DNA of 64,000 nucleotides from positions 12,547 through 76,546 of the forward strand of contig JAPKYK010000003.1 of the NCBI GenBank assembly GCA_026394395.1, in the 5' to 3' direction. Under the pieces are notes generated by a model. That model did not search any database, was not told the DNA's origin, and was given only the letters and a program-made list of their open reading frames with translations. Origin of the DNA: Methanomassiliicoccales archaeon. Lineage in GTDB: Archaea; Thermoplasmatota; Thermoplasmata; Methanomassiliicoccales; UBA472. Each line of letters opens with the position of its first letter. The first letter of the stretch is position 1. Made by a program: the position numbers and the translations under genes. Of the stretch, positions 7,538 through 52,010 are shown piece by piece.

Positions 7538-8130
7538 GCCAAAAGGAGAGCTGGGACCGCCTGTACAAAAGGGACGACCGTCCCTGGAAGGGGGACCCGG
7601 ACGCCACGCTGCCCTTCGAGGGAACGGTCCTGGAGCTGGGCGTGGGGAACGGAAAGGGGTTGGCGGCGCTGTCGACGAACACGCAGCCCATAGGATTGGA
7701 CTTCTCCCGTCAGGCGCTGTGGTCCTGCCGTCGATGGCGCTCATTGCCTCTGTTGCAGGGGGACGTCACCGCCCTGCCCATTCGGGACGCATGCATGCCG
7801 TCGATCGCCACCTCCCACGTCCTCGGTCACCTTCTGCTTCCGGACAGGATAGACGCAGCTATGGAGATAACGAGAGTACTGGCGAACGACGGGCGTCTCT
7901 TTATCAGCGTCTTCGGGGACGGCGATATGCGCTGCGGGAAAGGAACGGAGGTTGAGCAGCGGACCTACGAAAGGGGCAACGGCATAATCTGCCATTACTT
8001 CGCGGAGGGGGAGGTCATTGAACTATTCCCGGACCTGCAACTGGAAGAGGAATGGACCAGATGTGTGTCCAAGCGCTACCACGGCCGGGACGAAGTACGG
8101 CAGGAACGCCGCGCGCTGCTCCGCAAGTGA
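7534..8130 (+). CDS. Class I SAM-dependent methyltransferase
   Basis: Motif I VLELGVGNGKG, followed by IGLDFS and LANDGRLFISVF. The start overlaps the upstream stop by 4 nt (ATGA). Confidence 0.7.
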   Translation: MSQKESWDRLYKRDDRPWKGDPDATLPFEGTVLELGVGNGKGLAALSTNTQPIGLDFSRQALWSCRRWRSLPLLQGDVTALPIRDACMPSIATSHVLGHLLLPDRIDAAMEITRVLANDGRLFISVFGDGDMRCGKGTEVEQRTYERGNGIICHYFAEGEVIELFPDLQLEEEWTRCVSKRYHGRDEVRQERRALLRK

Positions 8131-8171
8131 GTTCGCTCCCTTTATCTATCACTGCGTAAGTTGAGGTCCGG

Positions 8172-8981
8172 ATGCATAGATTCGGAATGCCAGTGCTGAT
8201 AGAGTACCAGGAACTGCGGCCCAACCTTGAGCTGTGCCATGAGCTTGGATTGGACTTCATCGAGCTCAATATGAACCTGCCATACTCCTTTCCCGAGAAC
8301 ATTAATTCCCGGGAGGTGAAGTGGGCGCTGAAAGAGGGGATGCGCTTTAGCATCCACCTGCACGACGAGCTCGATCTGGGCTCGCTACACCGATCCGTCC
8401 GCAAGGGGCATATCGCCCGATGCGAGGACGCCCTGCGCTGGGGGGCGAAGAACGGTGTGTTCCTGCTGAACCTGCACCTGAACCCCGGGGTGTACTTCAC
8501 CCTGCCCGACGGCAAGATCTGGGTGTACGAGCGGTATCAGAACGAGTACATCGAATCCCTGAACGATTCGTTGTCCCAGCTTTCCTCCCTGGCCTCTGGG
8601 CTGGGAGTTAGGATATGCCTGGAAAACACCGGGCACCTCGCCCTGCCGTTCATGCGCCGGGCGGTGGAATCGGTATTGGACCTGGATTCCATCGGCCTTT
8701 GCTGGGACATAGGCCACGATGCCCGCGTCGGCCATCAGGAGGAAGATTTCATGTTGGCCCATGCGGATCGTCTATGGCACATGCACTTTCACGACTACGA
8801 CGGGAAGAGCGACCACCAGCTGCCCTTCACCGGCAACATCGATTGCCCTCACTTCCTGGATATGGCGAGGGAGAAGGACATGTCCGTGCTCATCGAAGTG
8901 AAGACCGAAGCGGCCGTCCGGCAGGCCGTGCTGACCATGCGCCAAAGGGGTTGCCTGCCCGATGCAAAGTCATTAAAATGA
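8172..8981 (+). CDS. Sugar-phosphate isomerase/epimerase (xylose-isomerase-like TIM barrel, AP-endonuclease-2 fold)
   Basis: LGLDFIELNMN, ICLENT, WDIGHD and HMHFHD form the metal-ligand pattern typical of this fold. Confidence 0.65.
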   Translation: MHRFGMPVLIEYQELRPNLELCHELGLDFIELNMNLPYSFPENINSREVKWALKEGMRFSIHLHDELDLGSLHRSVRKGHIARCEDALRWGAKNGVFLLNLHLNPGVYFTLPDGKIWVYERYQNEYIESLNDSLSQLSSLASGLGVRICLENTGHLALPFMRRAVESVLDLDSIGLCWDIGHDARVGHQEEDFMLAHADRLWHMHFHDYDGKSDHQLPFTGNIDCPHFLDMAREKDMSVLIEVKTEAAVRQAVLTMRQRGCLPDAKSLK

Positions 8982-9104
8982 CCCAAATGGTCATACATGT
9001 GCCATTCGTCTGCTGGCCCATTTCTAATGGCCAGATGTGGGGGTCATGGTTCTGTTGCAATGATTTATAACGCCGTAAACTCATTACTTGAGTGGTGAAT
9101 TAAC

Positions 9105-9515
9105 ATGGTAGCGATACCGGATGAAGTAATGAAGGTCCTCAACGACCCAACCTCGGTGAGGGTCATAGCGACAAAATCAGAGAAGGGCGATGTTCATATT
9201 ATCCAGGCAGGAAGCATAAAGGCCCCCGCCCCGGACACCGTCATCATCGGTGCCATCCTCATGAAGCGCACCGGAAAGAACTTGGAGGGCATGAAGGCCA
9301 AGGGCGAGCTGGTCTCTATACTAGCTGGAAGTAAGACCACCTCTTTCGAGATCAGAGCCAAGGTCAAGGAACTGGTCACCTCCGGTCCGATGTTCGACGG
9401 CATGAACGCCGAATTGTCGAAGATGGGGATGAAGGCCAGCGGCGTCTGGGTTTTTGAGGTCAAAGAGGTCTGGAACCAAAGCGCCAACTTCAACGCCGGC
9501 AAGAAGATGGTCTAG
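9105..9515 (+). CDS. Small split-barrel (pyridoxamine-5'-phosphate-oxidase-like) flavoprotein candidate
   Basis: 136-aa ORF with clean coding composition. The N-terminus IPDEVMKVLNDPTSVRVIATKSEKGDVHIIQ resembles PNPOx-like family members. Functional assignment is weak. Confidence 0.45.
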   Translation: MVAIPDEVMKVLNDPTSVRVIATKSEKGDVHIIQAGSIKAPAPDTVIIGAILMKRTGKNLEGMKAKGELVSILAGSKTTSFEIRAKVKELVTSGPMFDGMNAELSKMGMKASGVWVFEVKEVWNQSANFNAGKKMV

Positions 9516-10774
9516 GCCATCTTCCTTTTATTTTTTAACCTTACGCGCACCGAATCGGCGTGCGCGTGCAAACCTTCCGTCTCCGCCAGCTTTATGGTGG
9601 CGGGGGCCAGCTTTTCCAACAACTCCTGGTCCAGGAACTGCACCGAGGAGCGCTTCATGAAGTGCAGCACATCCAGTCCAGAGTGTAGCGCGGCGTTGCC
9701 CGCCGTCGGTAGCACGTGGTCCGTGCCAGTGGTGTAGTCACCGCAGGCTACAGGGGAATCGTGCCCCAGGAAGATGGCCCCGGCGTTCTTGATCGATGAC
9801 AGCAACGAAAGGGGGTCCCGGACCTGCAGAGAAAGGTGTTCTGGGGCCAACTGATTGCTCACCGCCGCACTTTCCTCCACACCCCCGGTGATGATGTAGC
9901 CGCTGTTCTTCAGCGAACTGAGCATGATATCCCGCCGGGGGCTTTGGGCCACATGATCATCGATGATCCTCCACACCTTGTTTGGTAGAGTTCTATCGTC
10001 AGTGATCAGGGCGCACGCCGAGTGCGGGTCGTGCTCCGCCTGCGCCAGTATGTCCGCTGCCACGTTCTCCGGGCGAGCGCTGCTGTCCGCGATAATGGCT
10101 ATCTCGCTCGGCCCGGCGGGGAAGTCCATCTCCACCTCCTGCCTCAGTCTGACCTTGGCGGCGGTGACGTAGATGTTACCGGGTCCCACGATCTTCTGCA
10201 CCTTGGGCACCGTCTTCGTCCCCAGGGCCATGGCCGCTATGGCCTGGGCTCCTCCGCACTTGTAGATGCGGTCGACCCCGGCCAGGTCCAAGGCCACCAG
10301 CGTCAGGGGGTGAACTGGCGGAGGGGTGCAGGCTACGACGCTCGTCACGCCGGCCACCTTGGCCGGCACGGCGCACATAAGAGCGGTGCTGGGATAGGAT
10401 GCCCTCCCGCCGGGGATGTATATGCCTACGGATTCAAGGGGTGAATACTTCCAGCCCAGGGCGCTGTCCCCCTCCTTGATAAGATCGATGTCGTCCGGCC
10501 TCTGTCTCCGGTGGTAGGCTTCGATCCGATCCTTGGCGAACCTCAAAGCGACCAACAGTTCGGCGTCGATCTTTGTGTACGCCTCTTCGATCTCCTCTGC
10601 CGACACCTGCAGCGAGGTCAGCTCCACCTTGTCGAAGCGGGCGGTGAGCTTCTTCACCGCCGCATCGCCGTTCTCCGCCACCTGCTTGATGATGTCGTCG
10701 ACCGCCGGAAGGACCGCGCTCAGATCGGATCGTCCGCGCGCCTTCCAAGACCCGACGGACAGAGGTTCCCACAT
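9512..10774 (-). CDS. hisD: Histidinol dehydrogenase
   Basis: 420 aa containing AQAEHDPHS, CGDYTTGTDHVLPTAG and GLHAHADSVR, which are HisD hallmark regions. Confidence 0.92.
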   Translation of the reverse strand: MWEPLSVGSWKARGRSDLSAVLPAVDDIIKQVAENGDAAVKKLTARFDKVELTSLQVSAEEIEEAYTKIDAELLVALRFAKDRIEAYHRRQRPDDIDLIKEGDSALGWKYSPLESVGIYIPGGRASYPSTALMCAVPAKVAGVTSVVACTPPPVHPLTLVALDLAGVDRIYKCGGAQAIAAMALGTKTVPKVQKIVGPGNIYVTAAKVRLRQEVEMDFPAGPSEIAIIADSSARPENVAADILAQAEHDPHSACALITDDRTLPNKVWRIIDDHVAQSPRRDIMLSSLKNSGYIITGGVEESAAVSNQLAPEHLSLQVRDPLSLLSSIKNAGAIFLGHDSPVACGDYTTGTDHVLPTAGNAALHSGLDVLHFMKRSSVQFLDQELLEKLAPATIKLAETEGLHAHADSVRVRLKNKRKMA

Positions 10775-38943: not shown

Positions 38944-39067
38944 CTCTATATCAATCCAGTAATCCTCTATATTAAAATTATGCTACGACAGATGAAATGG
39001 GGAACTGGGGCACCGTACAGGTCTTGGTAATATTTCGATACCAGACAGAAAAAAGATATAACTGGGA

Positions 39068-40126
39068 ATGGAGGTATACGGTCCCGCAATGGAACGCAAG
39101 GCCGGTTTTAAAGAGTGCCCAAAATGCGGGCTTCGCAACAAACCAACAGCGGTCCAGTGCGATTTTTGCGGGCAGAGCCTTACCGCGGGCGACGATTGGC
39201 AGTCCCACGTCAAGGACCTGGAATCCTTCACCAAGGCCGATAGCCGAGGGACGGTCGATTATCAGACCTCGCGGCGCATCGAATCGACTATCATTCGCAA
39301 GGAGCCCCCCCATCACAAGCCTGTGGAAGTTAAGGAGGTGGCCAACCTTGAGGACATCCTGAAGGAGTTCGATAAGACACCTCCCGTCAAAGACGAACCT
39401 GCAGTTGAACCGCCGAAGGAAGCTTCCATTTCCGCGGAAGCCCCTTCCGGCACCATAGTAACGGTCGAACCTCCTCTGGCAGTGTCTGAGGAAGCGCCGA
39501 AAATCCATGAGGAACCGACCGAACCTAAGGTCATTACCGAGCCTGTCCCCGGGTCGTCCATAGAAAAGCGGTCTCCGGCCGAAACCGCCACTGAGAAGTC
39601 CGAAAAGATCCCAGAGGAGGAGCGCCCGGTCGAGGTCGCATCTCCGGAACCGGAGGAAGTGGTATCGGCCCCTTCGCCTGAGGCGATGACCACCGCTCCC
39701 GCCGTAAGCGAGGAGGTCAAGCCGCCGGAGACCGTCAGCGTGGTATGGGACGAGGTCGTGGTCGTTGAAGAGACAGGGACCAGGACAAGCGAAGATGAGG
39801 CTCCGCAAACGGCAGAGGTGCATAAAAATTCCAAACTCTTGCATGGTAAGAGAGCGATGGTCGCGGTAGGGATACTGGCTGTGGGCATCTTCCTCTACCT
39901 GATCACCTTGGCCCTGACCGCCATTGGATTCGTCGGCACCGCATTCAGCCTGGGCCTAGGGAGCGTATCGTCATTGATGGTGGTGATAGGAGCGGCCATG
40001 GCCTATCCTTCGTTCAAGCGGAAGGAACTGGACGAGGTTTTTATCTGTCCCAAATGCCATGAGAGCGTTGACAGGGACGGCGACCGCTGCCCCGCCTGTG
40101 GTGCAGCGTTCCTGCCCGAGGATTAG
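39068..40126 (+). CDS. Membrane protein with zinc ribbons at both termini and a long acidic Pro/Glu-rich linker
   Basis: N-terminal CPKCG-x11-CDFCG. About 200 aa of P/E/V/A-rich low complexity. Two or three TM helices (AMVAVGILAVGIFLYLITLALTAIGFVG...). C-terminal CPKCH-x9-CPACG. The ATG at 39089 is an alternative start. Confidence 0.65.
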   Translation: MEVYGPAMERKAGFKECPKCGLRNKPTAVQCDFCGQSLTAGDDWQSHVKDLESFTKADSRGTVDYQTSRRIESTIIRKEPPHHKPVEVKEVANLEDILKEFDKTPPVKDEPAVEPPKEASISAEAPSGTIVTVEPPLAVSEEAPKIHEEPTEPKVITEPVPGSSIEKRSPAETATEKSEKIPEEERPVEVASPEPEEVVSAPSPEAMTTAPAVSEEVKPPETVSVVWDEVVVVEETGTRTSEDEAPQTAEVHKNSKLLHGKRAMVAVGILAVGIFLYLITLALTAIGFVGTAFSLGLGSVSSLMVVIGAAMAYPSFKRKELDEVFICPKCHESVDRDGDRCPACGAAFLPED

Positions 40127-46380: not shown

Positions 46381-47145
46381 TCAGAACCTACCTCTGCTTC
46401 CTCCGCCGCCCGAGCGTCCGCCGCCGAATCCGCCTCCTCCTTTGCCACCGGTAAGCAAGAAGATCAGGATGAACCAGATGCGACCCTTAGTGATAACCGT
46501 CAAGGCCACTAATATTATTATAATGATGACCCACTCCGTGGTGGTCAGGGGGATACCGCCTATGGGATAGGCCGGATCGCCTCCCTCGGCTTCCGTGTAA
46601 TCCTTGATTATCTTGATACCTAGATAATAGGTCATGTCAATCATGGCATCGCCATATTCCCCGGCCTGGAGATAGAGGGTTACATTATTCCTAGCCACAT
46701 CGCTGATGTAAGCGGTGGTCAGGACGTACGTCAGCCCGTAGCCGACCTCCACTTTCCACTCCCTGGTACTGATGACCAGTACGATGAGGACGCCATTGTC
46801 CTTTCCTTCCTTGCCTATCCCATTCTTCTGGAGGGTGCGCAGGGCGAAGTCGTTTATGTCCCGATCACCGGTGTCGTTGACGATGAGCACGGCCATCTCG
46901 CACGAGGTCTGCTCGTCTACGTAAACGCAGTTGTTCTCGATGGCACTATATTCTTCATCGCTCAGGACATACTCCTCATCGGTGACATAGTGATCCAGAT
47001 CAGGAATCCCTTTGAAGCGTGCATCCTCTTCCAAAGCCGGGATTATTCCCATGAAAATAATTATAAGAAGGATGGCCGCGACGAATATGACAGCGACCAC
47101 CTTCACTAGCACCTCGCCGATGGTGCCCTTCATCGCCTGGTTCAC
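46381..47145 (-). CDS. TPM-domain (YgcG-like) membrane protein with a Gly-rich tail
   Basis: N-terminal TM helix. TPM-like core (EMAVLIVNDTGDRDINDFALRTLQKNGIGKEGKDNGVLIVLVISTREWKVEVGYGL). A second TM helix. C-terminal GGKGGGGFGGGRSGGGGSRGRF. The start overlaps the LemA stop by 4 nt. Confidence 0.8.
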   Translation of the reverse strand: MNQAMKGTIGEVLVKVVAVIFVAAILLIIIFMGIIPALEEDARFKGIPDLDHYVTDEEYVLSDEEYSAIENNCVYVDEQTSCEMAVLIVNDTGDRDINDFALRTLQKNGIGKEGKDNGVLIVLVISTREWKVEVGYGLTYVLTTAYISDVARNNVTLYLQAGEYGDAMIDMTYYLGIKIIKDYTEAEGGDPAYPIGGIPLTTTEWVIIIIILVALTVITKGRIWFILIFLLTGGKGGGGFGGGRSGGGGSRGRF

Positions 47146-47699
47146 ATCCCTGGATTGTAGTACACCGCCTTCTCGAAGCCGAAGCTGTCAGCGAACAATA
47201 CGTTGGGGAACTTTGTTATGGCGGTATTGTACTCCCTGACCACATCGTTGTAGAACTTACGCTCCGAAGCGATCTGATTGGTCGTGGATTCGAACTGGTC
47301 CATGAAGGTTCTAATGACGTTCGGTGCTACTGACAGGTTCGGGTAAGCCTCAGTGATGGCGGCCACGAATACATTGAAGGATGAGTCGAGCTGCTCGGAC
47401 GCGTTCATCTTTTCCTCTGTATTGCCGGAGAAGGATTGCCAAATATCCCTGGCCTCGGTGACGTTTACATACAGGTTATATTCGTACTCCAAGGACGTGT
47501 TCACGATCTCGTACATTGTTGGGATGAGTTCGATCTTCCTCTGGTACGCGACCTCTACATCGCTCCAGTGGCTCTGCACGCCCTGTTCCTTGGAGACCAT
47601 GTCATTGTACGCCAGGATGACCATCATTACTACGATCAAGATTGCCGCTGTGGCAATGATGCCAGCAATGAGTGGCTTGCTGAGTCGGAGCTCGGCCAT
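47142..47699 (-). CDS. LemA-family membrane protein
   Basis: N-terminal TM helix, then YNDMVSKEQGVQSHWSDVEVAYQRKIELIP...FYNDVVREYNTAITKFPNVLFADSFGFEK. Confidence 0.85.
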   Translation of the reverse strand: MAELRLSKPLIAGIIATAAILIVVMMVILAYNDMVSKEQGVQSHWSDVEVAYQRKIELIPTMYEIVNTSLEYEYNLYVNVTEARDIWQSFSGNTEEKMNASEQLDSSFNVFVAAITEAYPNLSVAPNVIRTFMDQFESTTNQIASERKFYNDVVREYNTAITKFPNVLFADSFGFEKAVYYNPGM

Positions 47700-47747
47700 G
47701 CCTACGTAATAGCTATGCCATATTATTGAATCTTTTTATGATGGCCG

Positions 47748-48335
47748 TCACAACCCAGGCGTCAGCCCAGCCGTGCCGCGGACGAACGGTAGGTATACCA
47801 GTCGAGTGTCGTTCACCTGCAGCGAATAGTCCAGGTACTGCAGTGTACCCGGCTTCTCCGCTTCCATGGTGACCACCACGAAATCGGCCATCTTCGTGGC
47901 CTCCTCCTTGCTGACCGACGTCGCCCCCCTTTCTACGTTGTTGAAGTCCATGCGCAGGGAGTACGTGGGCTGGGCCTCGGTAATGTTGATGGCCCAATGA
48001 CGGAACTCCTCGACCTCGGTCTCCCAGGCGGGGATGTAGATGAATATGTTGCCGCTGTTGGACGCCCCCTTCAGCAGATTGCCGAGCTTGTGCAGGGTGC
48101 CCCCGGCCACCTGCGAACGGTTGATGGTGACGGCTGAGAACAGGCGCCAGAAAGGCATGTAGACCCGGTCCCCGGGCACGCTCATGTTGAACTCGGCAAT
48201 GTCGAACTCCAGGATGTCGATGCCGCCGTCGCGCACGTGCATGGTGCGGCAATGGTTGCAGTAGAACGCCATGTCCTTGACCTTGGAGTAGATGGGCTGC
48301 TGGCACCGAGGGCATTTCACCTGTACGACCTTCAT
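47748..48335 (-). CDS. Zinc-ribbon protein, short soluble paralog of the two upstream genes
   Basis: N-terminal CPRC-x14-CNHC, then RVYMPFWRLF. The equivalent motifs in the paralogs are YPIYLPFWST and YFPVYLFK. No TM segment. The start overlaps the upstream stop by 4 nt. Confidence 0.65.
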   Translation of the reverse strand: MKVVQVKCPRCQQPIYSKVKDMAFYCNHCRTMHVRDGGIDILEFDIAEFNMSVPGDRVYMPFWRLFSAVTINRSQVAGGTLHKLGNLLKGASNSGNIFIYIPAWETEVEEFRHWAINITEAQPTYSLRMDFNNVERGATSVSKEEATKMADFVVVTMEAEKPGTLQYLDYSLQVNDTRLVYLPFVRGTAGLTPGL

Positions 48336-49324
48336 ATGCGGAATCCCTCCATGTTGCCCACTATGTCTTTGAGCGGGTTCGCTTTCTTCCGGTCGTCGAA
48401 GTCCCCTTCTATGATCTCAGAGCCATGCCGGAAGAACATGTAGGTGAACCCGAGGATGACCGCCCCGATTATCACTCCGCCCACCGCGATCGTCCCGTCC
48501 TCTGCACCCAAACCTATTATGAGCCCTCCGGCGGCGATGAGGCCGCCTATGGAGGTGCCTCCGGTCACGGCCAGGCTCTGATACAGAGGATCACCAGGGG
48601 CGCGCCCGGAGATCACCGCACCTGTGACGCCGTCCACGGTCACCGTGTACATGCGCTCGCCGTAACCGTAACGTACCACCCATACCGGATAAAATATCTG
48701 GCTGATGCCCTTGGGAATTACCGTTACTTTCTCGAAGGTTATGTGCGGGACGTTGGCGTCGTTCCTGGCGTCGCTCAGGGCCTGCTCCGCCGATCTCTTA
48801 ACGGCATCATTCTTGCTGCTGGTGCTTTCGAACGTGGGAATGCTCTCGAAGTCGGCGAAGGACGTCTCCCCCACGGTGTTCCGCAGGAACTTGATGCCCA
48901 GGTCGCCGGGGTCGCAGGCGATGTTCGAATAACGGTAGTCGCGCAGGACCATCTCCTCCTTGGGTATCCGCTCGGTGTGCGTGTTCCCGTTGCGGTCCCG
49001 GTGCTCCCTTTCCTCGTATCCACATATCCAGCCGGCCACCCGGGTGGTGGTGCTCCAGAACGGCAGGTAGATTGGATAGCATTCCAGGAGCTTCCCCTTG
49101 ACCTTGAGGTCCCTGGCCTTGAGGCCTTTTCGCCACCATTGCTCGGTGGCCTTCATGACGGTGTCCCGGTTCTGCTTGTTCTTGAAGGCTACGGTGAGAA
49201 CTCCGGCATCCCCTTCCGCCCAAAGGAGCGAGTTGCAATATTGGCAGTTGAGGACCTGGTCTCCTTCGTTCACTTGGATAGCGCCCCCGCAGGAAGGGCA
49301 GTTCAGGCCGACGCTGATGGGCAT
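48332..49324 (-). CDS. Zinc-ribbon membrane protein (paralog B)
   Basis: I prefer the ATG at 49324, preceded by GGAGGA and 1 nt after the upstream stop. CPSCGGAIQVNEGDQVLNCQYCNS. Conserved FYPVWVVRYGYGERMYTVTVDGVTGAVISGRAP. Gly-rich C-terminal TM region. Confidence 0.7.
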   Translation of the reverse strand: MPISVGLNCPSCGGAIQVNEGDQVLNCQYCNSLLWAEGDAGVLTVAFKNKQNRDTVMKATEQWWRKGLKARDLKVKGKLLECYPIYLPFWSTTTRVAGWICGYEEREHRDRNGNTHTERIPKEEMVLRDYRYSNIACDPGDLGIKFLRNTVGETSFADFESIPTFESTSSKNDAVKRSAEQALSDARNDANVPHITFEKVTVIPKGISQIFYPVWVVRYGYGERMYTVTVDGVTGAVISGRAPGDPLYQSLAVTGGTSIGGLIAAGGLIIGLGAEDGTIAVGGVIIGAVILGFTYMFFRHGSEIIEGDFDDRKKANPLKDIVGNMEGFRI

Positions 49325-49325
49325 A

Positions 49326-50072
49326 TTACATCCTCCTGGCCACAAAATTGGCGGCAACGAATATGCCCACCACGGTCACGGCCATCAAGACCACGGCGAT
49401 CAACGGCGAAAACAGGGCGATCAGCCCTTCCACCAAGAAGGCGATGAAGCCCAGGCCGGCCACGGCTATGTAGGCCCCGGAGTTCCTTGGCGGGAACTCA
49501 GCTGAGAAGACCTCCCCAGTGGTGGCGCTTATGACCACCACGTATCCTTTCTGCTCGAACACGTAGTTCAGCTTCCATATAGGGAAGTACACCAGGGCTT
49601 GCTCCTTGGCCGCGCCCGGGAGAGCGCTCAGATAGGTGGCCATCTCGATGTCGGGTTTGGTCATTTCGGCGCCCTTCACATCGAACTTGTCGTCAAAGAT
49701 CTTTAGGTCCCCGCCAGGCACTTTCAGGTTGTGCAGCCCCGGAAGCGTCGTCGACGCCGCCGGTTCCACGTACACCTGCTCCATGCCGTTGACGTCCCGC
49801 TTGAAGAGGTACACCGGGAAGTATTCCTTTTTCAACGATGATATCTGGGCCAGCTTGTCCAGGTCCTTGGCGCGGGTAGAGCCCCCGGCCCAGCGACGGA
49901 AGACGCCCACGGCGTCGTTCTCGCTCAGGGCGAAGGGCAGGGCATAATAGAAACTAGCGCCGGACCGGTCGATGAAGATCTGCGAGGAACAGTAGGAGCA
50001 TTTGACGAACTTGTCGCCAGCGTCGAACTCCACCGGCGCCCCGCATTTGGTGCACTTCATGCTGGCCATCAC
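49326..50072 (-). CDS. Zinc-ribbon membrane protein (paralog A)
   Basis: CTKCGAPVEFDAGDKFVKCSYCSS. Conserved YFPIWKLNYVFEQKGYVVVISATTGEVFSAEFP. Two C-terminal TM helices. GTG at 50072 or ATG at 50069, preceded by AAGGTGA. Confidence 0.7.
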   Translation of the reverse strand: MMASMKCTKCGAPVEFDAGDKFVKCSYCSSQIFIDRSGASFYYALPFALSENDAVGVFRRWAGGSTRAKDLDKLAQISSLKKEYFPVYLFKRDVNGMEQVYVEPAASTTLPGLHNLKVPGGDLKIFDDKFDVKGAEMTKPDIEMATYLSALPGAAKEQALVYFPIWKLNYVFEQKGYVVVISATTGEVFSAEFPPRNSGAYIAVAGLGFIAFLVEGLIALFSPLIAVVLMAVTVVGIFVAANFVARRM

Positions 50073-50078
50073 ATCACC

Positions 50079-51218
50079 TTACAGCCCTGTGCCGCACTCC
50101 GGGCAGAACTTAGTTGTGAGAGGGGACTCCTTGCCGCATTTGGGACAGGGCTTGCTCCCTTTCATCTGCCCTCCGCACTCCGGGCAGAACTTGGCCTCGG
50201 CCGGCACGTCATTGCCGCATTTGGGACAGGGGACCCTGCCGTTGGACATCTTGTTCCCACAGCTGTGGCAGAACTTGGCGTCCGGCGGATTGGGCGTATT
50301 GCATTTCGTGCAGGCCACCGTGGCCACTGCGGCGGGAGCCGCGGCCGGGGCTGGCTGAGCCGTTCCAGCTGCAGGCTGGGTGCCACCCTGGCGCATGGCG
50401 TCCACCATCATGTAGCCGGCACCGAAACCAGCGCCGACCCCCACGCCCGCTGCGGCAGCCCCGCCGGACGGGTTGGAGGCCGCCTCGCGCATGGCCTGAC
50501 CGGCCTGGTAGGTGGCGTAGTTGGTGTTGAGTATCTGCATGGAGGCGCGCATGTCCACGGCCTTCTGCACCTCGTCGGGCATGGAGATGTACATCCCCGA
50601 TACCTTGTCGATTATCACGCCGTAGAGCTCGAAGTGGTCCTTGGCCTTGCTCAGCACCACTTGCTCGATGTTCATGAGCTGGGCGGCCAGATCGGCCACT
50701 CCCATGCCCTTGGCCTTCATCTCGCCGATGGCGTTGTAGATCAGCACCACCATCTGCTCCTTGATGCGCTCCTCCACCTCGGGGGCGGTGGCCAGGTTCA
50801 TGGTCCCCACGAACTGGTTGACAAAGTTCTCCGGAGCGCCCACCTTGTAACGGAACTCCCCGAAGACCCTCAGGTTGACCATACCGAACTCGGCGTCGCG
50901 GAACTGGTAGGGCTGTTTGCTCCCGTATTTTCCGTCGAAGACCTTCTTCTGCAGGTAGATAATCTCGGCCTGCTGCCGCGCTCCCGACAGCGCTTCGATG
51001 ACCTTGCCGATTATCGGTGCGTTCAACGAGGTCAGGGCGTAACGGTCCGGTCGGTCCAGGTAGGCCATGGCCTTGCCGTCGCGATAGAACACCGCGATCT
51101 CGTCCTCGCGCACCACGATGTTGTCGTTGAGCTTTACGTTGCGGTCCATGCGGTACATGATGTTGTTCCGCTTGTCCGCGTCCTCCCATTTGAAAGTCTC
51201 TGCACCTATCAAGCTCAT
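50079..51218 (-). CDS. SPFH/Band-7 domain protein with three C-terminal zinc ribbons (YdjI / COG4260-like)
   Basis: N-terminal IMYRMDRNVKLNDNIVVREDEIAVFYRDGK...FRDAEFGMVNLRVFGEFRYKV is typical of the YdjI-type SPFH family. A Gly/Ala-rich linker follows. Then come CTKC..CHSCG, CPKCG..CPECG and CPKCG..CPECG. Confidence 0.8.
   Translation of the reverse strand: MSLIGAETFKWEDADKRNNIMYRMDRNVKLNDNIVVREDEIAVFYRDGKAMAYLDRPDRYALTSLNAPIIGKVIEALSGARQQAEIIYLQKKVFDGKYGSKQPYQFRDAEFGMVNLRVFGEFRYKVGAPENFVNQFVGTMNLATAPEVEERIKEQMVVLIYNAIGEMKAKGMGVADLAAQLMNIEQVVLSKAKDHFELYGVIIDKVSGMYISMPDEVQKAVDMRASMQILNTNYATYQAGQAMREAASNPSGGAAAAGVGVGAGFGAGYMMVDAMRQGGTQPAAGTAQPAPAAAPAAVATVACTKCNTPNPPDAKFCHSCGNKMSNGRVPCPKCGNDVPAEAKFCPECGGQMKGSKPCPKCGKESPLTTKFCPECGTGL
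50091..50320. repeat. Three tandem 81-84-nt coding repeats (the zinc-ribbon modules of the SPFH gene)
   Basis: The 20-nt cores CCGCACTCCGGGCAGAACTT (50092 and 50173) and TTGCCGCATTTGGGACAGGG (50131 and 50211) are identical between units 1 and 2. A third, degenerate unit retains GCAGAACTTGGC (50268). Confidence 0.8.
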
Positions 51219-51222
51219 GTGA

Positions 51223-51765
51223 TCACAGCCCCGTATCGGTTATAGCGGCCTTGCGCCGCTTGAAGCGGTCCTCAAGTCCTTCCACCCTGGCCCTGACGGT
51301 GTCCACGGCCTGTATCAGGCTTACATTGTCCCCAGAACGAACCATGCCCGGCAATTGGACCAGGGCCTCATCGATGAAGTTGATGCTCTCGATCATCGAG
51401 GCGTCGTACTCATAGAGCTTGTTGAGCTCGTGGTCCTTTATCTTCACGTCCGCAGAGATGCCGGAATACCCTACCTCGGCGTGCAGCATCTCGCCCTCCA
51501 CCCTCTTCATGAGATTGACCAGGGAGCCCACTTCCTCCAGAGCATCGGACGTGGGGTCCTTCCGGACCAGCGCCCTGCGGGCGTCCTCAAGCTGGGCCCT
51601 CTCCTGGGACATTCTCTTGACCAGTTCCGCCCTCAGCATGCGGTCCGAGTCGCGAAGGTCCTCCCTGATGCGGTAGCCCCGGAACCCCGGGATGACCGTT
51701 TGGATTTTTTTCAGCAGGCCCCGGTCGTCCTCGACCTTATCCCTTATGTCTGGCAAAGGAACCAA
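51223..51765 (-). CDS. Hypothetical helical protein (180 aa), first gene of the SPFH operon
   Basis: Charged, heptad-like sequence (RMLRAELVKRMSQERAQLEDARRALV...; VDTVRARVEGLEDRFKRRKAA). No TM segment and no Cys. Lies 4 nt upstream of the SPFH gene. Confidence 0.6.
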   Translation of the reverse strand: MVPLPDIRDKVEDDRGLLKKIQTVIPGFRGYRIREDLRDSDRMLRAELVKRMSQERAQLEDARRALVRKDPTSDALEEVGSLVNLMKRVEGEMLHAEVGYSGISADVKIKDHELNKLYEYDASMIESINFIDEALVQLPGMVRSGDNVSLIQAVDTVRARVEGLEDRFKRRKAAITDTGL

Positions 51766-51809
51766 CTCCCTCGCCCCAGATATCGTAAGGCAATCTTAAA
51801 AACATTGGC

Positions 51810-52010
51810 CTACATCATCTTCCGGGTCATATCTCCAAGGGAACCGTACTTGCGCATGCCTCTCTTACCCAGGTAACGACCTATCAGGGCGCAGGGTATG
51901 ACGATCAAGAAAGCCCACAGAGAATCTGTCAAGTAATAGACCACATCAGCGATCAATATCCCGACGGCTGCGCCCCAAATAGTCCCAAGCCATACCAGAT
52001 TAAGCCCCAA
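51810..52010 (-). CDS. Small two-TM membrane protein; weak call
   Basis: GLNLVWLGTIWGAAVGILIADVVYYL...AFLIVIPCALIGRYLG. Non-ATG start and no clear RBS. Confidence 0.35.
   Translation of the reverse strand: MGLNLVWLGTIWGAAVGILIADVVYYLTDSLWAFLIVIPCALIGRYLGKRGMRKYGSLGDMTRKMM

What the first reader, a model, noticed from the sequence alone, without database searches (positions are those of the whole stretch)
46381..51765. Seven-gene operon: helical protein, SPFH protein with 3x zinc ribbon, three paralogous zinc-ribbon proteins, LemA and TPM; a PspA-less archaeal counterpart of the bacterial PspA-YdjGHI module?
Seen in sequence: seven minus-strand genes have junctions of 4, 6, 1, -4, 48 and -4 nt. 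Established knowledge: SPFH proteins with C-terminal zinc ribbons form the YdjI/COG4260 type. In Bacillus subtilis the pspA-ydjGHI operon encodes PspA, a zinc-ribbon protein, a membrane protein and YdjI, and YdjI helps tether PspA to the membrane. LemA-TPM pairs are a widespread membrane module of unresolved function. Inference: here the two modules are joined in one archaeal locus. The zinc-ribbon component is triplicated. The position where a PspA/ESCRT-III-like protein would be expected is taken by a 180-aa charged helical protein that I cannot assign. The locus looks like a membrane-integrity or membrane-remodelling system whose effector may be a divergent or novel helical polymer. The 48-nt spacer before LemA contains AT-rich sequence, so LemA-TPM may also have its own promoter.
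Basis: partly seen in the sequence, partly recalled or inferred. Interest (0 to 1): 0.7.

Follow-up and report, generated by a model that had tools for sequence, protein, structure and literature searches.

The report
Archaeal SPFH membrane module lacking PspA
This archaeal gene cluster is a relative of the Bacillus PspA-YdjGHI membrane-stress system in which PspA's place is taken by an unrelated, uncharacterised helical protein that always sits next to this type of SPFH gene in archaea and bacteria.

Summary
Seven minus-strand genes have junctions of 4, 6, 1, -4, 48 and -4 nt in a Methanomassiliicoccales genome. g2 is a soluble Band_7_1 SPFH protein with three C-terminal zinc ribbons, homologous to a Bacillus-type YdjI (hhalign 99%). 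g3, g4 and the more divergent g5 are paralogous zinc-ribbon proteins. g3 and g4 are homologous to YdjG (96-97%). g7 is a TPM protein like YdjH, so TPM belongs to the Ydj set and is not a foreign module. g6 is LemA. g1 (177 aa; true start 51756) is not PspA or ESCRT-III by any test run: Pfam, hhalign (0.1%), PDB profiles and Foldseek. Its model is all-helical (six predicted helices); its best, weak fold matches are four-helix bundles. g1 belongs to a large unnamed family (1351 clusters). The g1-g5 core is kept in the same order in 58 of 59 Thermoplasmatota loci. In 9 of 9 contexts from outside that set, g1 lies next to a Band_7_1 gene. LemA-TPM joins the core in only 11 of 51 loci. No PspA was found near any g1 gene. 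Best reading: a YdjGHI/SamGHI-type membrane-associated SPFH complex with a new obligate partner. Whether that partner is a PspA-like effector is untested.

The parts
51810..52010 (-). g0: 66-aa small membrane protein upstream on the same strand. It is probably a separate transcription unit, and its membership of the system is uncertain.
   Evidence: ORF. A hydrophobic segment was found. Only weak Pfam hits. It is present only in the closest clade (L004-L016). A 61-aa ORF lies at the same place in L003. The g1 promoter-like element lies downstream of it.
51779..51802 (-). Promoter-like element in front of g1: TATA-like TTTTTAAG, then 11 nt, then GATATC. A GAGGGAG ribosome-binding site follows.
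   Evidence: The equivalent TTTATTA/TTTTAAG ... GATAT(T/C) element lies 45-50 nt upstream of the g1 start in nearly all 80 related loci. Only 2 such sites occur in the 64-kb window, with about 1 expected by chance. It also holds the only T5 run on this strand between 46200 and 52300.
51223..51756 (-). g1: 177-aa soluble all-helical protein of an unnamed family. Invariant motifs are PGFRGYRxREDxRxxDxxLR and GYSG. It is the obligate neighbour of Band_7_1 SPFH genes and sits in the PspA position.
   Evidence: No Pfam family. NCBIfam NF047596 LIMLP_15305_fam at E 1.5e-13, below its cutoff. The family has 1351 clusters at E<=1e-3. AF2 gives pLDDT 83 and pTM 0.78, with six predicted helices. No PspA or ESCRT-III similarity. 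Synteny.
50079..51218 (-). g2: 379-aa soluble SPFH protein (Band_7_1), then an Ala/Gly/Pro-rich linker and three CxxC-N-CxxC zinc ribbons. YdjI/SamI type.
   Evidence: Pfam Band_7_1 1.6e-31, DZR 2.5e-23, Zn_Ribbon_1 x3. BLASTP to Bacillus-type YdjI 2e-11 over the full length. hhalign 99.0% over 271 columns. No hydrophobic segment.
49326..50072 (-). g3: 248-aa YdjG-like protein with an N-terminal zinc ribbon, a cytoplasmic domain and a C-terminal membrane anchor (residues 198-247).
   Evidence: BLASTP to YdjG 1e-7, plus 5e-5 at the C-terminus. hhalign to YdjG 96.4% over 206 columns, and hmmsearch 9.9e-15. Hydrophobic segment.
48332..49324 (-). g4: 330-aa YdjG-like paralogue with a zinc ribbon, a helix-plus-sheet domain (weak PepSY/YpeB signal) and membrane helices around residues 246-300. 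It is the best conserved component (59-66% identity across lineages).
   Evidence: BLASTP to YdjG 3e-9 over 267 columns. hhalign 97.1%. Pfam PepSY E 0.02 at residues 178-239. AF2 pLDDT 70. Conservation.
47748..48335 (-). g5: 195-aa soluble, divergent paralogue of g4 with a zinc ribbon and part of the following domain. It has no membrane segment.
   Evidence: hhalign g4~g5 97.1% over 128 columns. g3~g5 matches over the zinc ribbon only. Only weak similarity to YdjG. No hydrophobic segment.
47700..47747 (-). 48-nt AT-rich spacer before LemA; a possible internal promoter.
   Evidence: The spacer sequence (AAAGATTGAATAT ... GGATATTAT) is conserved in six of the eight close relatives printed (L004, L005, L007, L010, L011, L012), although the proteins are only 75-80% identical. 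Function not tested.
47142..47699 (-). g6: LemA family protein with an N-terminal membrane helix.
   Evidence: Pfam LemA 1.1e-31. Hydrophobic segment at residues 4-37. Linked to the core in 11 of 51 loci.
46381..47145 (-). g7: TPM-domain membrane protein with the layout TM, TPM, TM, Gly-rich tail. It is the YdjH/SamH-type component.
   Evidence: Pfam TPM 1.7e-30. Bacillus-type YdjH is also TPM (3.1e-23). BLASTP between the two 2e-4. Both are 254 aa and share the two-TM layout. hhalign was inconclusive.

Best explanation
The locus encodes a YdjGHI/SamGHI-type SPFH complex that sits on the cytoplasmic face of the membrane, in a form that has no PspA gene.

Proposed working, with the basis for each step:
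1. The tail-anchored zinc-ribbon proteins g3 and g4, with soluble g5, recruit the soluble SPFH protein g2 to the membrane. YdjG/YdjH do this for YdjI in Bacillus subtilis. Homology is shown here; recruitment is inferred.
2. g2 oligomerises there as a scaffold. This is inferred from what is known of SPFH proteins.
3. g1 is made from the gene directly upstream of g2 and is probably translationally coupled to it. It binds g2 as its dedicated partner. The obligate gene pairing is shown; binding is inferred.
4. g1 is the client or output of the complex, in the operon position that PspA holds in Firmicutes. This is inferred.
5. In the window's clade, a TPM protein (the YdjH equivalent) and LemA are appended, possibly from their own promoter. 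They would add the membrane-spanning part.

The likely role is sensing or maintaining membrane integrity. This rests only on the Bacillus system.

g1 is a new family. It is not a PspA/ESCRT-III homologue.
For: Homology to the Bacillus-type proteins in L091:
- g2~YdjI: hhalign 99.0%, same SPFH-linker-ZnR layout.
- g3 and g4~YdjG: 96.4% and 97.1%, hmmsearch 1e-14 and 4.5e-11.
- g7 and YdjH are both Pfam TPM with the same two-TM layout.

Solubility and anchoring: g1, g2 and g5 lack hydrophobic segments, while g3 and g4 have C-terminal anchors.

Synteny:
- g1-g5 in the same order in 58 of 59 Thermoplasmatota loci.
- g1 next to Band_7_1 in 9 of 9 contexts outside that set. Directly upstream in 7; in the two acidobacterial loci one ZnR-Toastrack gene lies between them. 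Source-named taxa are Acidobacteriota and Coatesbacteria; the rest are unnamed metagenome contigs.
- A YdjG-like gene lies directly upstream of g1 in L086, L094 and L095.
- g1-g2 gaps are 0-4 nt in several lineages.

Other partners of the g1 family belong to the known PSP partner network:
- Toastrack/DUF4097 neighbour.
- DUF4178 fusions.
- DUF2089/SHOCT neighbours.
- Ravi et al. 2024 list these as PSP partners.

Literature: YdjG/H anchor YdjI, and YdjI recruits PspA (PMC8581546; bioRxiv 2026.02.06.704340).

Transcription: a conserved promoter-like element lies before g1, and no oligo-T run occurs between g1 and g7.
Against: - No experiment or complex prediction shows that g1 binds g2, or that g3/g4 anchor g2.
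- The g7-YdjH link rests on a shared Pfam family and layout. The pairwise E-value is only 2e-4 and hhalign was inconclusive.
- TPM and LemA are absent from the neighbourhood in 40 of 51 loci, so the core works without an adjacent YdjH equivalent.
- Band_7_1 genes also occur without g1, for example on Nocardia and Gemmatirosa plasmids.
- A PspA gene elsewhere in this genome could not be excluded.
- The biological role is extrapolated from one bacterium.
Confidence: 0.6

Rival explanations
1. g1 is a functional analogue of PspA. It would be a new helical membrane-binding or polymerising effector that the SPFH scaffold delivers to damaged membrane. It would replace ESCRT-III-type repair in lineages whose operon lacks PspA.
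For: - g1 occupies the PspA slot of a YdjG/YdjI-type operon.
- No PspA was found within 5-8 kb of any of about 90 g1 loci.
- The g1 family shares partner domains with PspA systems: Toastrack, DUF4178 and Band-7.
- The best, weak fold match is the membrane-fusion four-helix bundle IncA (E 0.05, TM 0.46).
Against: - g1 has no sequence, profile or fold similarity to PspA, Vipp1 or ESCRT-III.
- The AF2 model shows six separate helices of at most 36 residues and found no ESCRT-III-type fold match.
- The N-terminal helix is highly charged and not an obvious membrane-inserting helix.
- The invariant residues are polar (R, D, Y, G), which suits a binding interface or pocket better.
Confidence: 0.2
2. 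g1 is a regulatory or adaptor subunit of the SPFH assembly, comparable in logic to NfeD partners of stomatin/flotillin operons. It would control oligomerisation or signalling of the sensor complex and would not itself act on the membrane. The output would be signalling, as proposed for SamGHI.
For: - The dependence is one-sided: g1 always comes with Band_7_1, but Band_7_1 occurs without g1.
- The genes are tightly coupled.
- The model has no predicted membrane segment, and conserved polar motifs suit a protein-protein interface.
- The Bacillus SamGHI phenotypes are independent of PspA.
Against: - g1 has no DNA-binding or enzymatic domain to carry a signal.
- It shows no similarity to NfeD or to any known regulator.
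- No interaction data exist.
Confidence: 0.3
3. The cluster is an anti-phage defence or mobile island, or the seven genes are adjacent without forming a functional unit.
For: Zinc-ribbon proteins and SPFH proteins do occur in some defence contexts. PADLOC gave three marginal hits: PbeC 5e-4, HEC-08 4e-4 and PDC-S06 8e-3.
Against: - No PADLOC hit is convincing.
- The core is syntenic across 58 of 59 species-level loci, with housekeeping neighbours such as leuS and EF-1alpha.
- GC content is like that of the surroundings.
- There are no integrase or repeat signs.
- The components are homologous to an experimentally linked operon.
Confidence: 0.04

Closest known systems
Bacillus subtilis pspA-ydjGHI (renamed pspA-samGHI) operon
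   Same: - A soluble Band_7_1 SPFH protein with a low-complexity linker and a C-terminal zinc ribbon (g2~YdjI, 99%).
- Tail-anchored zinc-ribbon proteins with a YpeB/PepSY-like region (g3 and g4~YdjG, 96-97%).
- A TPM membrane protein with a TM-TPM-TM-Gly tail (g7, like YdjH).
- All are encoded together on one strand.
   Different: - There is no PspA gene. An unrelated 177-aa helical protein heads the operon instead.
- The YdjG-type gene is present three times, and one copy is soluble.
- The SPFH protein has three zinc ribbons, not one.
- The gene order differs: SPFH is second here but last in Bacillus.
- TPM is optional (11 of 51 loci) and comes with LemA.
- Regulation uses an archaeal TATA-type promoter, not sigma-W.
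LemA-TPM gene pairs (widespread membrane module; MamQ is a LemA-family member)
   Same: g6 is a LemA protein with an N-terminal TM. g7 is a TPM protein. The two genes overlap by 4 nt, as in the common pair.
   Different: Here the pair is attached to an SPFH/YdjG-type core in some Methanomassiliicoccales only. In one clade a 1021-aa Ig-like protein gene separates it from the core.
PspA/IM30/Vipp1/ESCRT-III effectors
   Same: g1 holds the same operon position relative to YdjG/YdjI-type genes. It is helical and of small size. The g1 family shares neighbours with PSP systems (Toastrack, DUF4178, Band-7).
   Different: There is no detectable homology: Pfam none in 52 members, hhalign 0.1%, and no PDB or Foldseek match. 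The model has six separate helices of at most 36 residues, not the long hairpin. g1 has no evident membrane-inserting N-terminal helix.
SPFH-NfeD operon pairs (stomatin/flotillin with NfeD partners such as YuaF or YqeZ)
   Same: The logic is the same: a small dedicated partner gene is tightly linked to an SPFH gene.
   Different: The comparison with NfeD rests on general knowledge and was not tested here. By that knowledge, NfeD proteins are membrane proteins with a beta-barrel domain. g1 is soluble and all-helical, and it shows no sequence similarity to any Pfam family.

Membership tests
YdjI/SamI-type SPFH (g2) | Pfam Band_7_1 (PF13421) SPFH domain | tested here: met
   E 1.6e-31, 110 bits against a cutoff of 24. 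Bacillus-type YdjI hits the same model at 8.3e-43.
YdjI/SamI-type SPFH (g2) | Low-complexity linker followed by C-terminal zinc ribbon(s); no membrane anchor | tested here: met
   Three CxxC...CxxC ribbons at residues 303-379. The alignment with YdjI includes the ribbon. No hydrophobic segment.
YdjI/SamI-type SPFH (g2) | Detectable homology to YdjI over the full length | tested here: met
   BLASTP 2e-11. hhalign 99.0%, E 2.4e-18, 271 columns.
YdjI/SamI-type SPFH (g2) | Membrane recruitment depends on YdjG/YdjH-type proteins | not testable with these tools
   Known for B. subtilis only (PMC8581546).
YdjG/SamG (g3, g4, g5) | N-terminal zinc ribbon(s) | tested here: met
   One CxxC-N-CxxC ribbon in each protein. 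YdjG has two.
YdjG/SamG (g3, g4, g5) | Homology to YdjG beyond the ribbon | tested here: met
   - g3: hhalign 96.4% over 206 columns.
- g4: BLASTP 3e-9 over 267 columns and hhalign 97.1%; hmmsearch 1e-14 (g3) and 4.5e-11 (g4).
- g5: linked to YdjG only through g4 (97.1%). Directly against YdjG it gives 77% over the ribbon only.
YdjG/SamG (g3, g4, g5) | YpeB/PepSY (NTF2-like) domain, as described by Ravi et al. 2024 | tested here: inconclusive
   Pfam PepSY E 0.02 in g4 at residues 178-239. The AF2 model shows helix-plus-sheet units but only pLDDT 70, and Foldseek gives no meaningful match.
YdjG/SamG (g3, g4, g5) | C-terminal membrane segment | tested here: met
   g3 residues 198-247 and g4 residues 252-299 are hydrophobic. 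g5 has no such segment, so g5 fails this feature.
YdjH/SamH TPM protein (g7) | TPM domain flanked by an N-terminal TM and a second TM, with a Gly-rich tail | tested here: met
   Pfam TPM 1.7e-30 for g7 and 3.1e-23 for YdjH. Both have the same two-TM layout and 254 aa. BLASTP 2e-4. hhalign with a thin profile was inconclusive.
YdjH/SamH TPM protein (g7) | Conserved membership of the operon | tested here: not met
   LemA+TPM lie within the flank in only 11 of 51 Thermoplasmatota loci. No TPM was seen in the nine other contexts.
PspA/IM30/ESCRT-III (g1) | Match to PspA_IM30 or Snf7 profiles | tested here: not met
   There was no Pfam hit for g1, and none to these families among 52 family members at E<=10. 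hhalign against Bacillus-type PspA gave 0.1%. No PspA, Vipp1 or CHMP chain appeared in PDB profile searches at E<=10.
PspA/IM30/ESCRT-III (g1) | ESCRT-III fold (long alpha1-alpha2/3 hairpin) | tested here: not met
PspA/IM30/ESCRT-III (g1) | Membrane binding and polymerisation | not testable with these tools
   This needs purified protein.
pspA-ydjGHI system as a whole | PspA encoded in the operon | tested here: not met
   phmmer with PspA found nothing in the window or in any g1 locus. It found only the Bacillus-type loci L089-L091. Whether PspA lies elsewhere in the genome could not be tested.
LemA (g6) | Pfam LemA domain after an N-terminal TM | tested here: met
   E 1.1e-31. Hydrophobic segment at residues 4-37.

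The most novel reading that the evidence does not exclude
The g1 family is a previously unrecognised class of membrane-stress effector. It has at least 1351 sequence clusters across archaea and bacteria, no name and no literature. It would work with YdjI-type SPFH scaffolds as a non-homologous replacement for PspA/ESCRT-III. Membrane repair by SPFH-recruited helical proteins would then have evolved at least twice.
Probability: 0.2. Interest if true: 0.8.

Novelty: new variant of a known kind. Interest (0 to 1): 0.58.

Why it matters
The Bacillus PspA-YdjGHI (SamGHI) system is the only studied case of an SPFH protein that links a membrane sensor to an ESCRT-III-type protein. Recent work suggests that the SamGHI part also has functions independent of PspA.

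This locus shows that the SamG/SamI-type core is widespread in archaea and in several bacterial phyla, and that there it pairs with a different, uncharacterised partner. That gives three things:
- a natural PspA-free version of the system in which to study the core function;
- a large unnamed protein family with a clear, testable partner;
- a specific hypothesis about how archaea without an operonic PspA maintain or monitor their membrane.

Tried and rejected
- **Diverse g1 alignment as a locus query.** The search for related loci with the 52-sequence alignment failed because no conserved stretch was found. The narrower alignment returned only Thermoplasmatota among its best 80 of 310 loci. 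Bacterial contexts therefore had to come from nine single look-ups.
- **Plasmid searches.** tblastn of g1 against plasmids gave no match. g2 against plasmids found SPFH genes without g1, PspA or YdjG-like neighbours, in Nocardia and Gemmatirosa. These said nothing about the PspA/g1 alternation.
- **PADLOC.** Only marginal hits, so the defence reading was rejected.
- **g4 structure.** The model has moderate confidence and Foldseek gave only meaningless beta-toxin matches (TM about 0.1). The NTF2/PepSY question stays open.
- **g1 against LemA and g2 profiles.** No relation.
- **Literature.** Searches for the g1 family (LIMLP_15305) and for Band_7_1/COG4260 found nothing functional.
- **Sigma-70 promoter/terminator scan.** Not used, because the organism is archaeal.
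- **Shared promoter motif.** A TATA-N-GATAT motif shared between the g1 and LemA promoters was considered. In the window itself the LemA spacer lacks GATAT, so no claim is made.

Full report
**Observation.** The window comes from a Methanomassiliicoccales genome. The best database match to g1 is 99% identical and named 'Methanomassiliicoccales archaeon'. ORF listing and reading of the minus strand confirm seven consecutive genes:

| Gene | Coordinates |
|---|---|
| g1 | 51223-51756 |
| g2 | 50079-51218 |
| g3 | 49326-50072 |
| g4 | 48332-49324 |
| g5 | 47748-48335 |
| g6 | 47142-47699 |
| g7 | 46381-47145 |

The junctions are 4, 6, 1, -4, 48 and -4 nt, exactly as reported. One correction applies. 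All homologues of g1 begin with MPDIR, so the start is the second TTG at 51756 and the protein is 177 aa. GC content is like that of the surroundings.

**Component identities.** Pfam assigns g2 to Band_7_1 (E 1.6e-31) with three C-terminal zinc ribbons, g6 to LemA (1.1e-31) and g7 to TPM (1.7e-30). g1 has no Pfam family. g3-g5 show only marginal zinc-ribbon hits, and g4 has a weak PepSY hit (E 0.02).
- g3 and g4 are clear paralogues: BLASTP 2e-12, and hhalign 99.3% over 191 columns on alignments of 59-65 orthologues.
- g5 is a more divergent relative of g4: 97.1% over 128 columns.
- A simple hydropathy scan finds no membrane segment in g1, g2 or g5. It finds C-terminal anchors in g3 and g4, an N-terminal helix in LemA, and two segments in TPM.

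**Direct comparison with the Bacillus system.** I fetched a Bacillus-type pspA-ydjGHI locus from a metagenome. The search pattern was the published ydjG primer sequence, made degenerate at wobble positions. Pfam confirmed its proteins as PspA_IM30, a zinc-ribbon protein, TPM, and Band_7_1 plus a zinc ribbon. The comparisons gave:
- g2 aligns with YdjI over the full length, ribbon included (BLASTP 2e-11; hhalign 99.0% over 271 columns).
- g4 and g3 are homologous to YdjG (BLASTP 3e-9 and 1e-7; hhalign 97.1% and 96.4%; hmmsearch 4.5e-11 and 1e-14).
- g7 and YdjH are both TPM proteins of 254 aa with the same TM-TPM-TM-Gly-rich-tail layout. The direct hhalign with a thin profile was inconclusive.

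Ravi et al. 2024 describe the same architectures: YdjG as zinc ribbons plus a YpeB/NTF2-like domain plus a TM, YdjH as TPM, and the Band-7 protein with a ZnR. TPM is the YdjH-type component, and only LemA is extra.

**The protein in the PspA position.** g1 is not PspA or ESCRT-III by any test I could run:
- No Pfam hit for g1. None of 52 diverse family members hits PspA_IM30 or Snf7, even at E<=10.
- hhalign of the family profile against Bacillus-type PspA gives 0.1%.
- Profile searches of all PDB sequences find only designed helical bundles.
- The AlphaFold model (pLDDT 83, pTM 0.78) has helices at residues 4-21, 31-66, 71-91, 108-133, 135-141 and 144-173.
- Foldseek against PDB gives nothing at E<=1e-3. 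The best hit is the IncA four-helix bundle (E 0.05, TM 0.46), and no PspA, Vipp1 or ESCRT-III chain is among the top 50.

The family is large. There are 1351 clusters (50% identity) at E<=1e-3 and 707 at E<=1e-10. It carries invariant polar motifs, PGFRGYRxREDxRxxDxxLR and GYSG. Its only database label is a sub-threshold match to NCBIfam 'LIMLP_15305 family protein'. I found no functional literature on it.

**Conservation of the arrangement.** A scan of one genome per species returned 310 confirmed g1 relatives. The best 80 are all Thermoplasmatota.
- In 58 of 59 loci with enough sequence, g1-g2-g3-g4-g5 follow each other in the same order.
- LemA plus TPM lie within the flank in only 11 of 51 loci. 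Six are directly adjacent, in the window's clade. Five lie about 3 kb away, behind a 1021-aa Ig-like protein gene.
- Relatives from outside that set were found with a profile of distant members. Source-named hits include Acidobacteriota, Anaerolineae and Coatesbacteria. In all nine contexts examined, g1 lies next to a Band_7_1 gene. It is directly upstream in seven. In the two acidobacterial loci, one ZnR-Toastrack gene lies between them.
- In three of the nine, a YdjG-like gene lies immediately upstream of g1.
- Some family members are fused to DUF4178 or to a zinc ribbon.

Toastrack, DUF4178 and DUF2089/SHOCT are all listed by Ravi et al. as partners of PSP systems. No PspA was detected in the window or near any g1 gene (and the Pfam columns). 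Conversely, Band_7_1 genes exist without g1. The dependence is therefore one-sided.

**Transcription signals.** About 45-50 nt upstream of g1, nearly all 80 loci carry a TATA-like TTTATTA/TTTTAAG, a spacer of about 11 nt, GATAT(T/C), and then a GGAGG-type ribosome-binding site.
- In the window this element is at 51802-51779. It is one of only two such sites in 64 kb.
- It lies downstream of the small membrane-protein ORF g0, so g0 is probably a separate unit.
- That T5 run is the only oligo-T on the coding strand between 46200 and 52300. This fits read-through from g1 to g7.
- The 48-nt spacer before LemA is conserved in close relatives, so an additional internal promoter is plausible but unproven.

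**Interpretation.** What is shown:
- homology of g2, g3/g4 and g7 to the YdjI, YdjG and YdjH types;
- strict synteny of g1-g5;
- obligate pairing of g1 with Band_7_1 genes across domains;
- absence of any detectable relation of g1 to PspA.

What is inferred from the Bacillus work:
- g3 and g4 anchor the soluble SPFH protein at the membrane;
- g1 binds the SPFH protein;
- the complex senses or protects the membrane.

The role of g1 is open. It could be the effector (a PspA analogue), or an adaptor or regulator of the SPFH assembly. The lack of a predicted membrane segment and the polar invariant residues lean slightly towards a binding partner, not a polymer. The g4 structure prediction (pLDDT 70) and its fold search did not settle the nature of the YdjG-like domain. 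A defence-island reading is unlikely.

**Verdict.** This is a new variant of a known kind of system: a PspA-less, YdjG-multiplied archaeal and bacterial form of the YdjGHI/SamGHI module. It carries a new, widespread and uncharacterised partner family.

Noticed in passing
window 51810-52010 (-): A 66-aa hydrophobic ORF (g0) lies 44 nt upstream of g1 on the same strand. It is conserved only in the closest clade, and a 61-aa ORF lies at the same place in L003. The conserved g1 promoter-like element lies between g0 and g1.
   Followed up: partly
window 51779-51802 (-); 45-50 nt upstream of g1 in L004-L083: A TATA-like box, about 11 nt, then GATAT(T/C) is conserved upstream of g1 across Thermoplasmatota. 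It is not a general feature of the window's promoters (2 sites in 64 kb). The GATAT element could be a regulator site or an initiator element.
   Followed up: partly
window 39062-40123 (+): Another 354-aa ORF has zinc ribbons at both ends (Pfam DZR, Zn_Ribbon_1). It was picked up weakly by the g2 profile through the ribbons.
   Followed up: no
L003/L017 12046-15108; the same position in L021-L024: A gene for a 1021-aa protein with weak Ig-like domain hits (Big_13, He_PIG) is inserted between g5 and LemA-TPM in one Methanomassiliicoccales clade.
   Followed up: partly
L084 170-6768 and L092 1-5699: In two Acidobacteriota contigs, the g1 - ZnR-Toastrack - Band_7_1-ZnR operon lies divergently next to a gas-vesicle (gvp) gene cluster.
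   Followed up: no
P0199, P0242, P0134, P0146, P0185, P0221, P0234, P0262: Some g1-family members are fused to DUF4178, some to an N-terminal zinc ribbon, and some to 200-250-residue Gly/Pro/Ser/Gln-rich tails.
   Followed up: partly
L048 13271-13825; L050 5807-6373: A second g1-family ORF lies about 1.2 kb downstream of g5 in two Thermoplasmata loci.
   Followed up: no
L055 (g1 8001-8501, g2 8535-9650): This is the only locus with enough sequence where g3-g5 were not detected after g1-g2.
   Followed up: no
L085, L093, L096: Coatesbacteria-type loci share upstream synteny (dihydroorotate dehydrogenase, Fpg, a Big_5 protein). Downstream of g1-SPFH they carry unrelated unknown genes in place of YdjG-like ones. 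L085 has an NHL-repeat protein, and L093 has DUF2089/SHOCT-like genes.
   Followed up: partly
g4 orthologues (A5) versus g1 orthologues (A1): g4 is markedly better conserved than g1 (about 45-50% identity to the window protein among the loci); g4's best 120 database hits are 59-66% identical or more.
   Followed up: no
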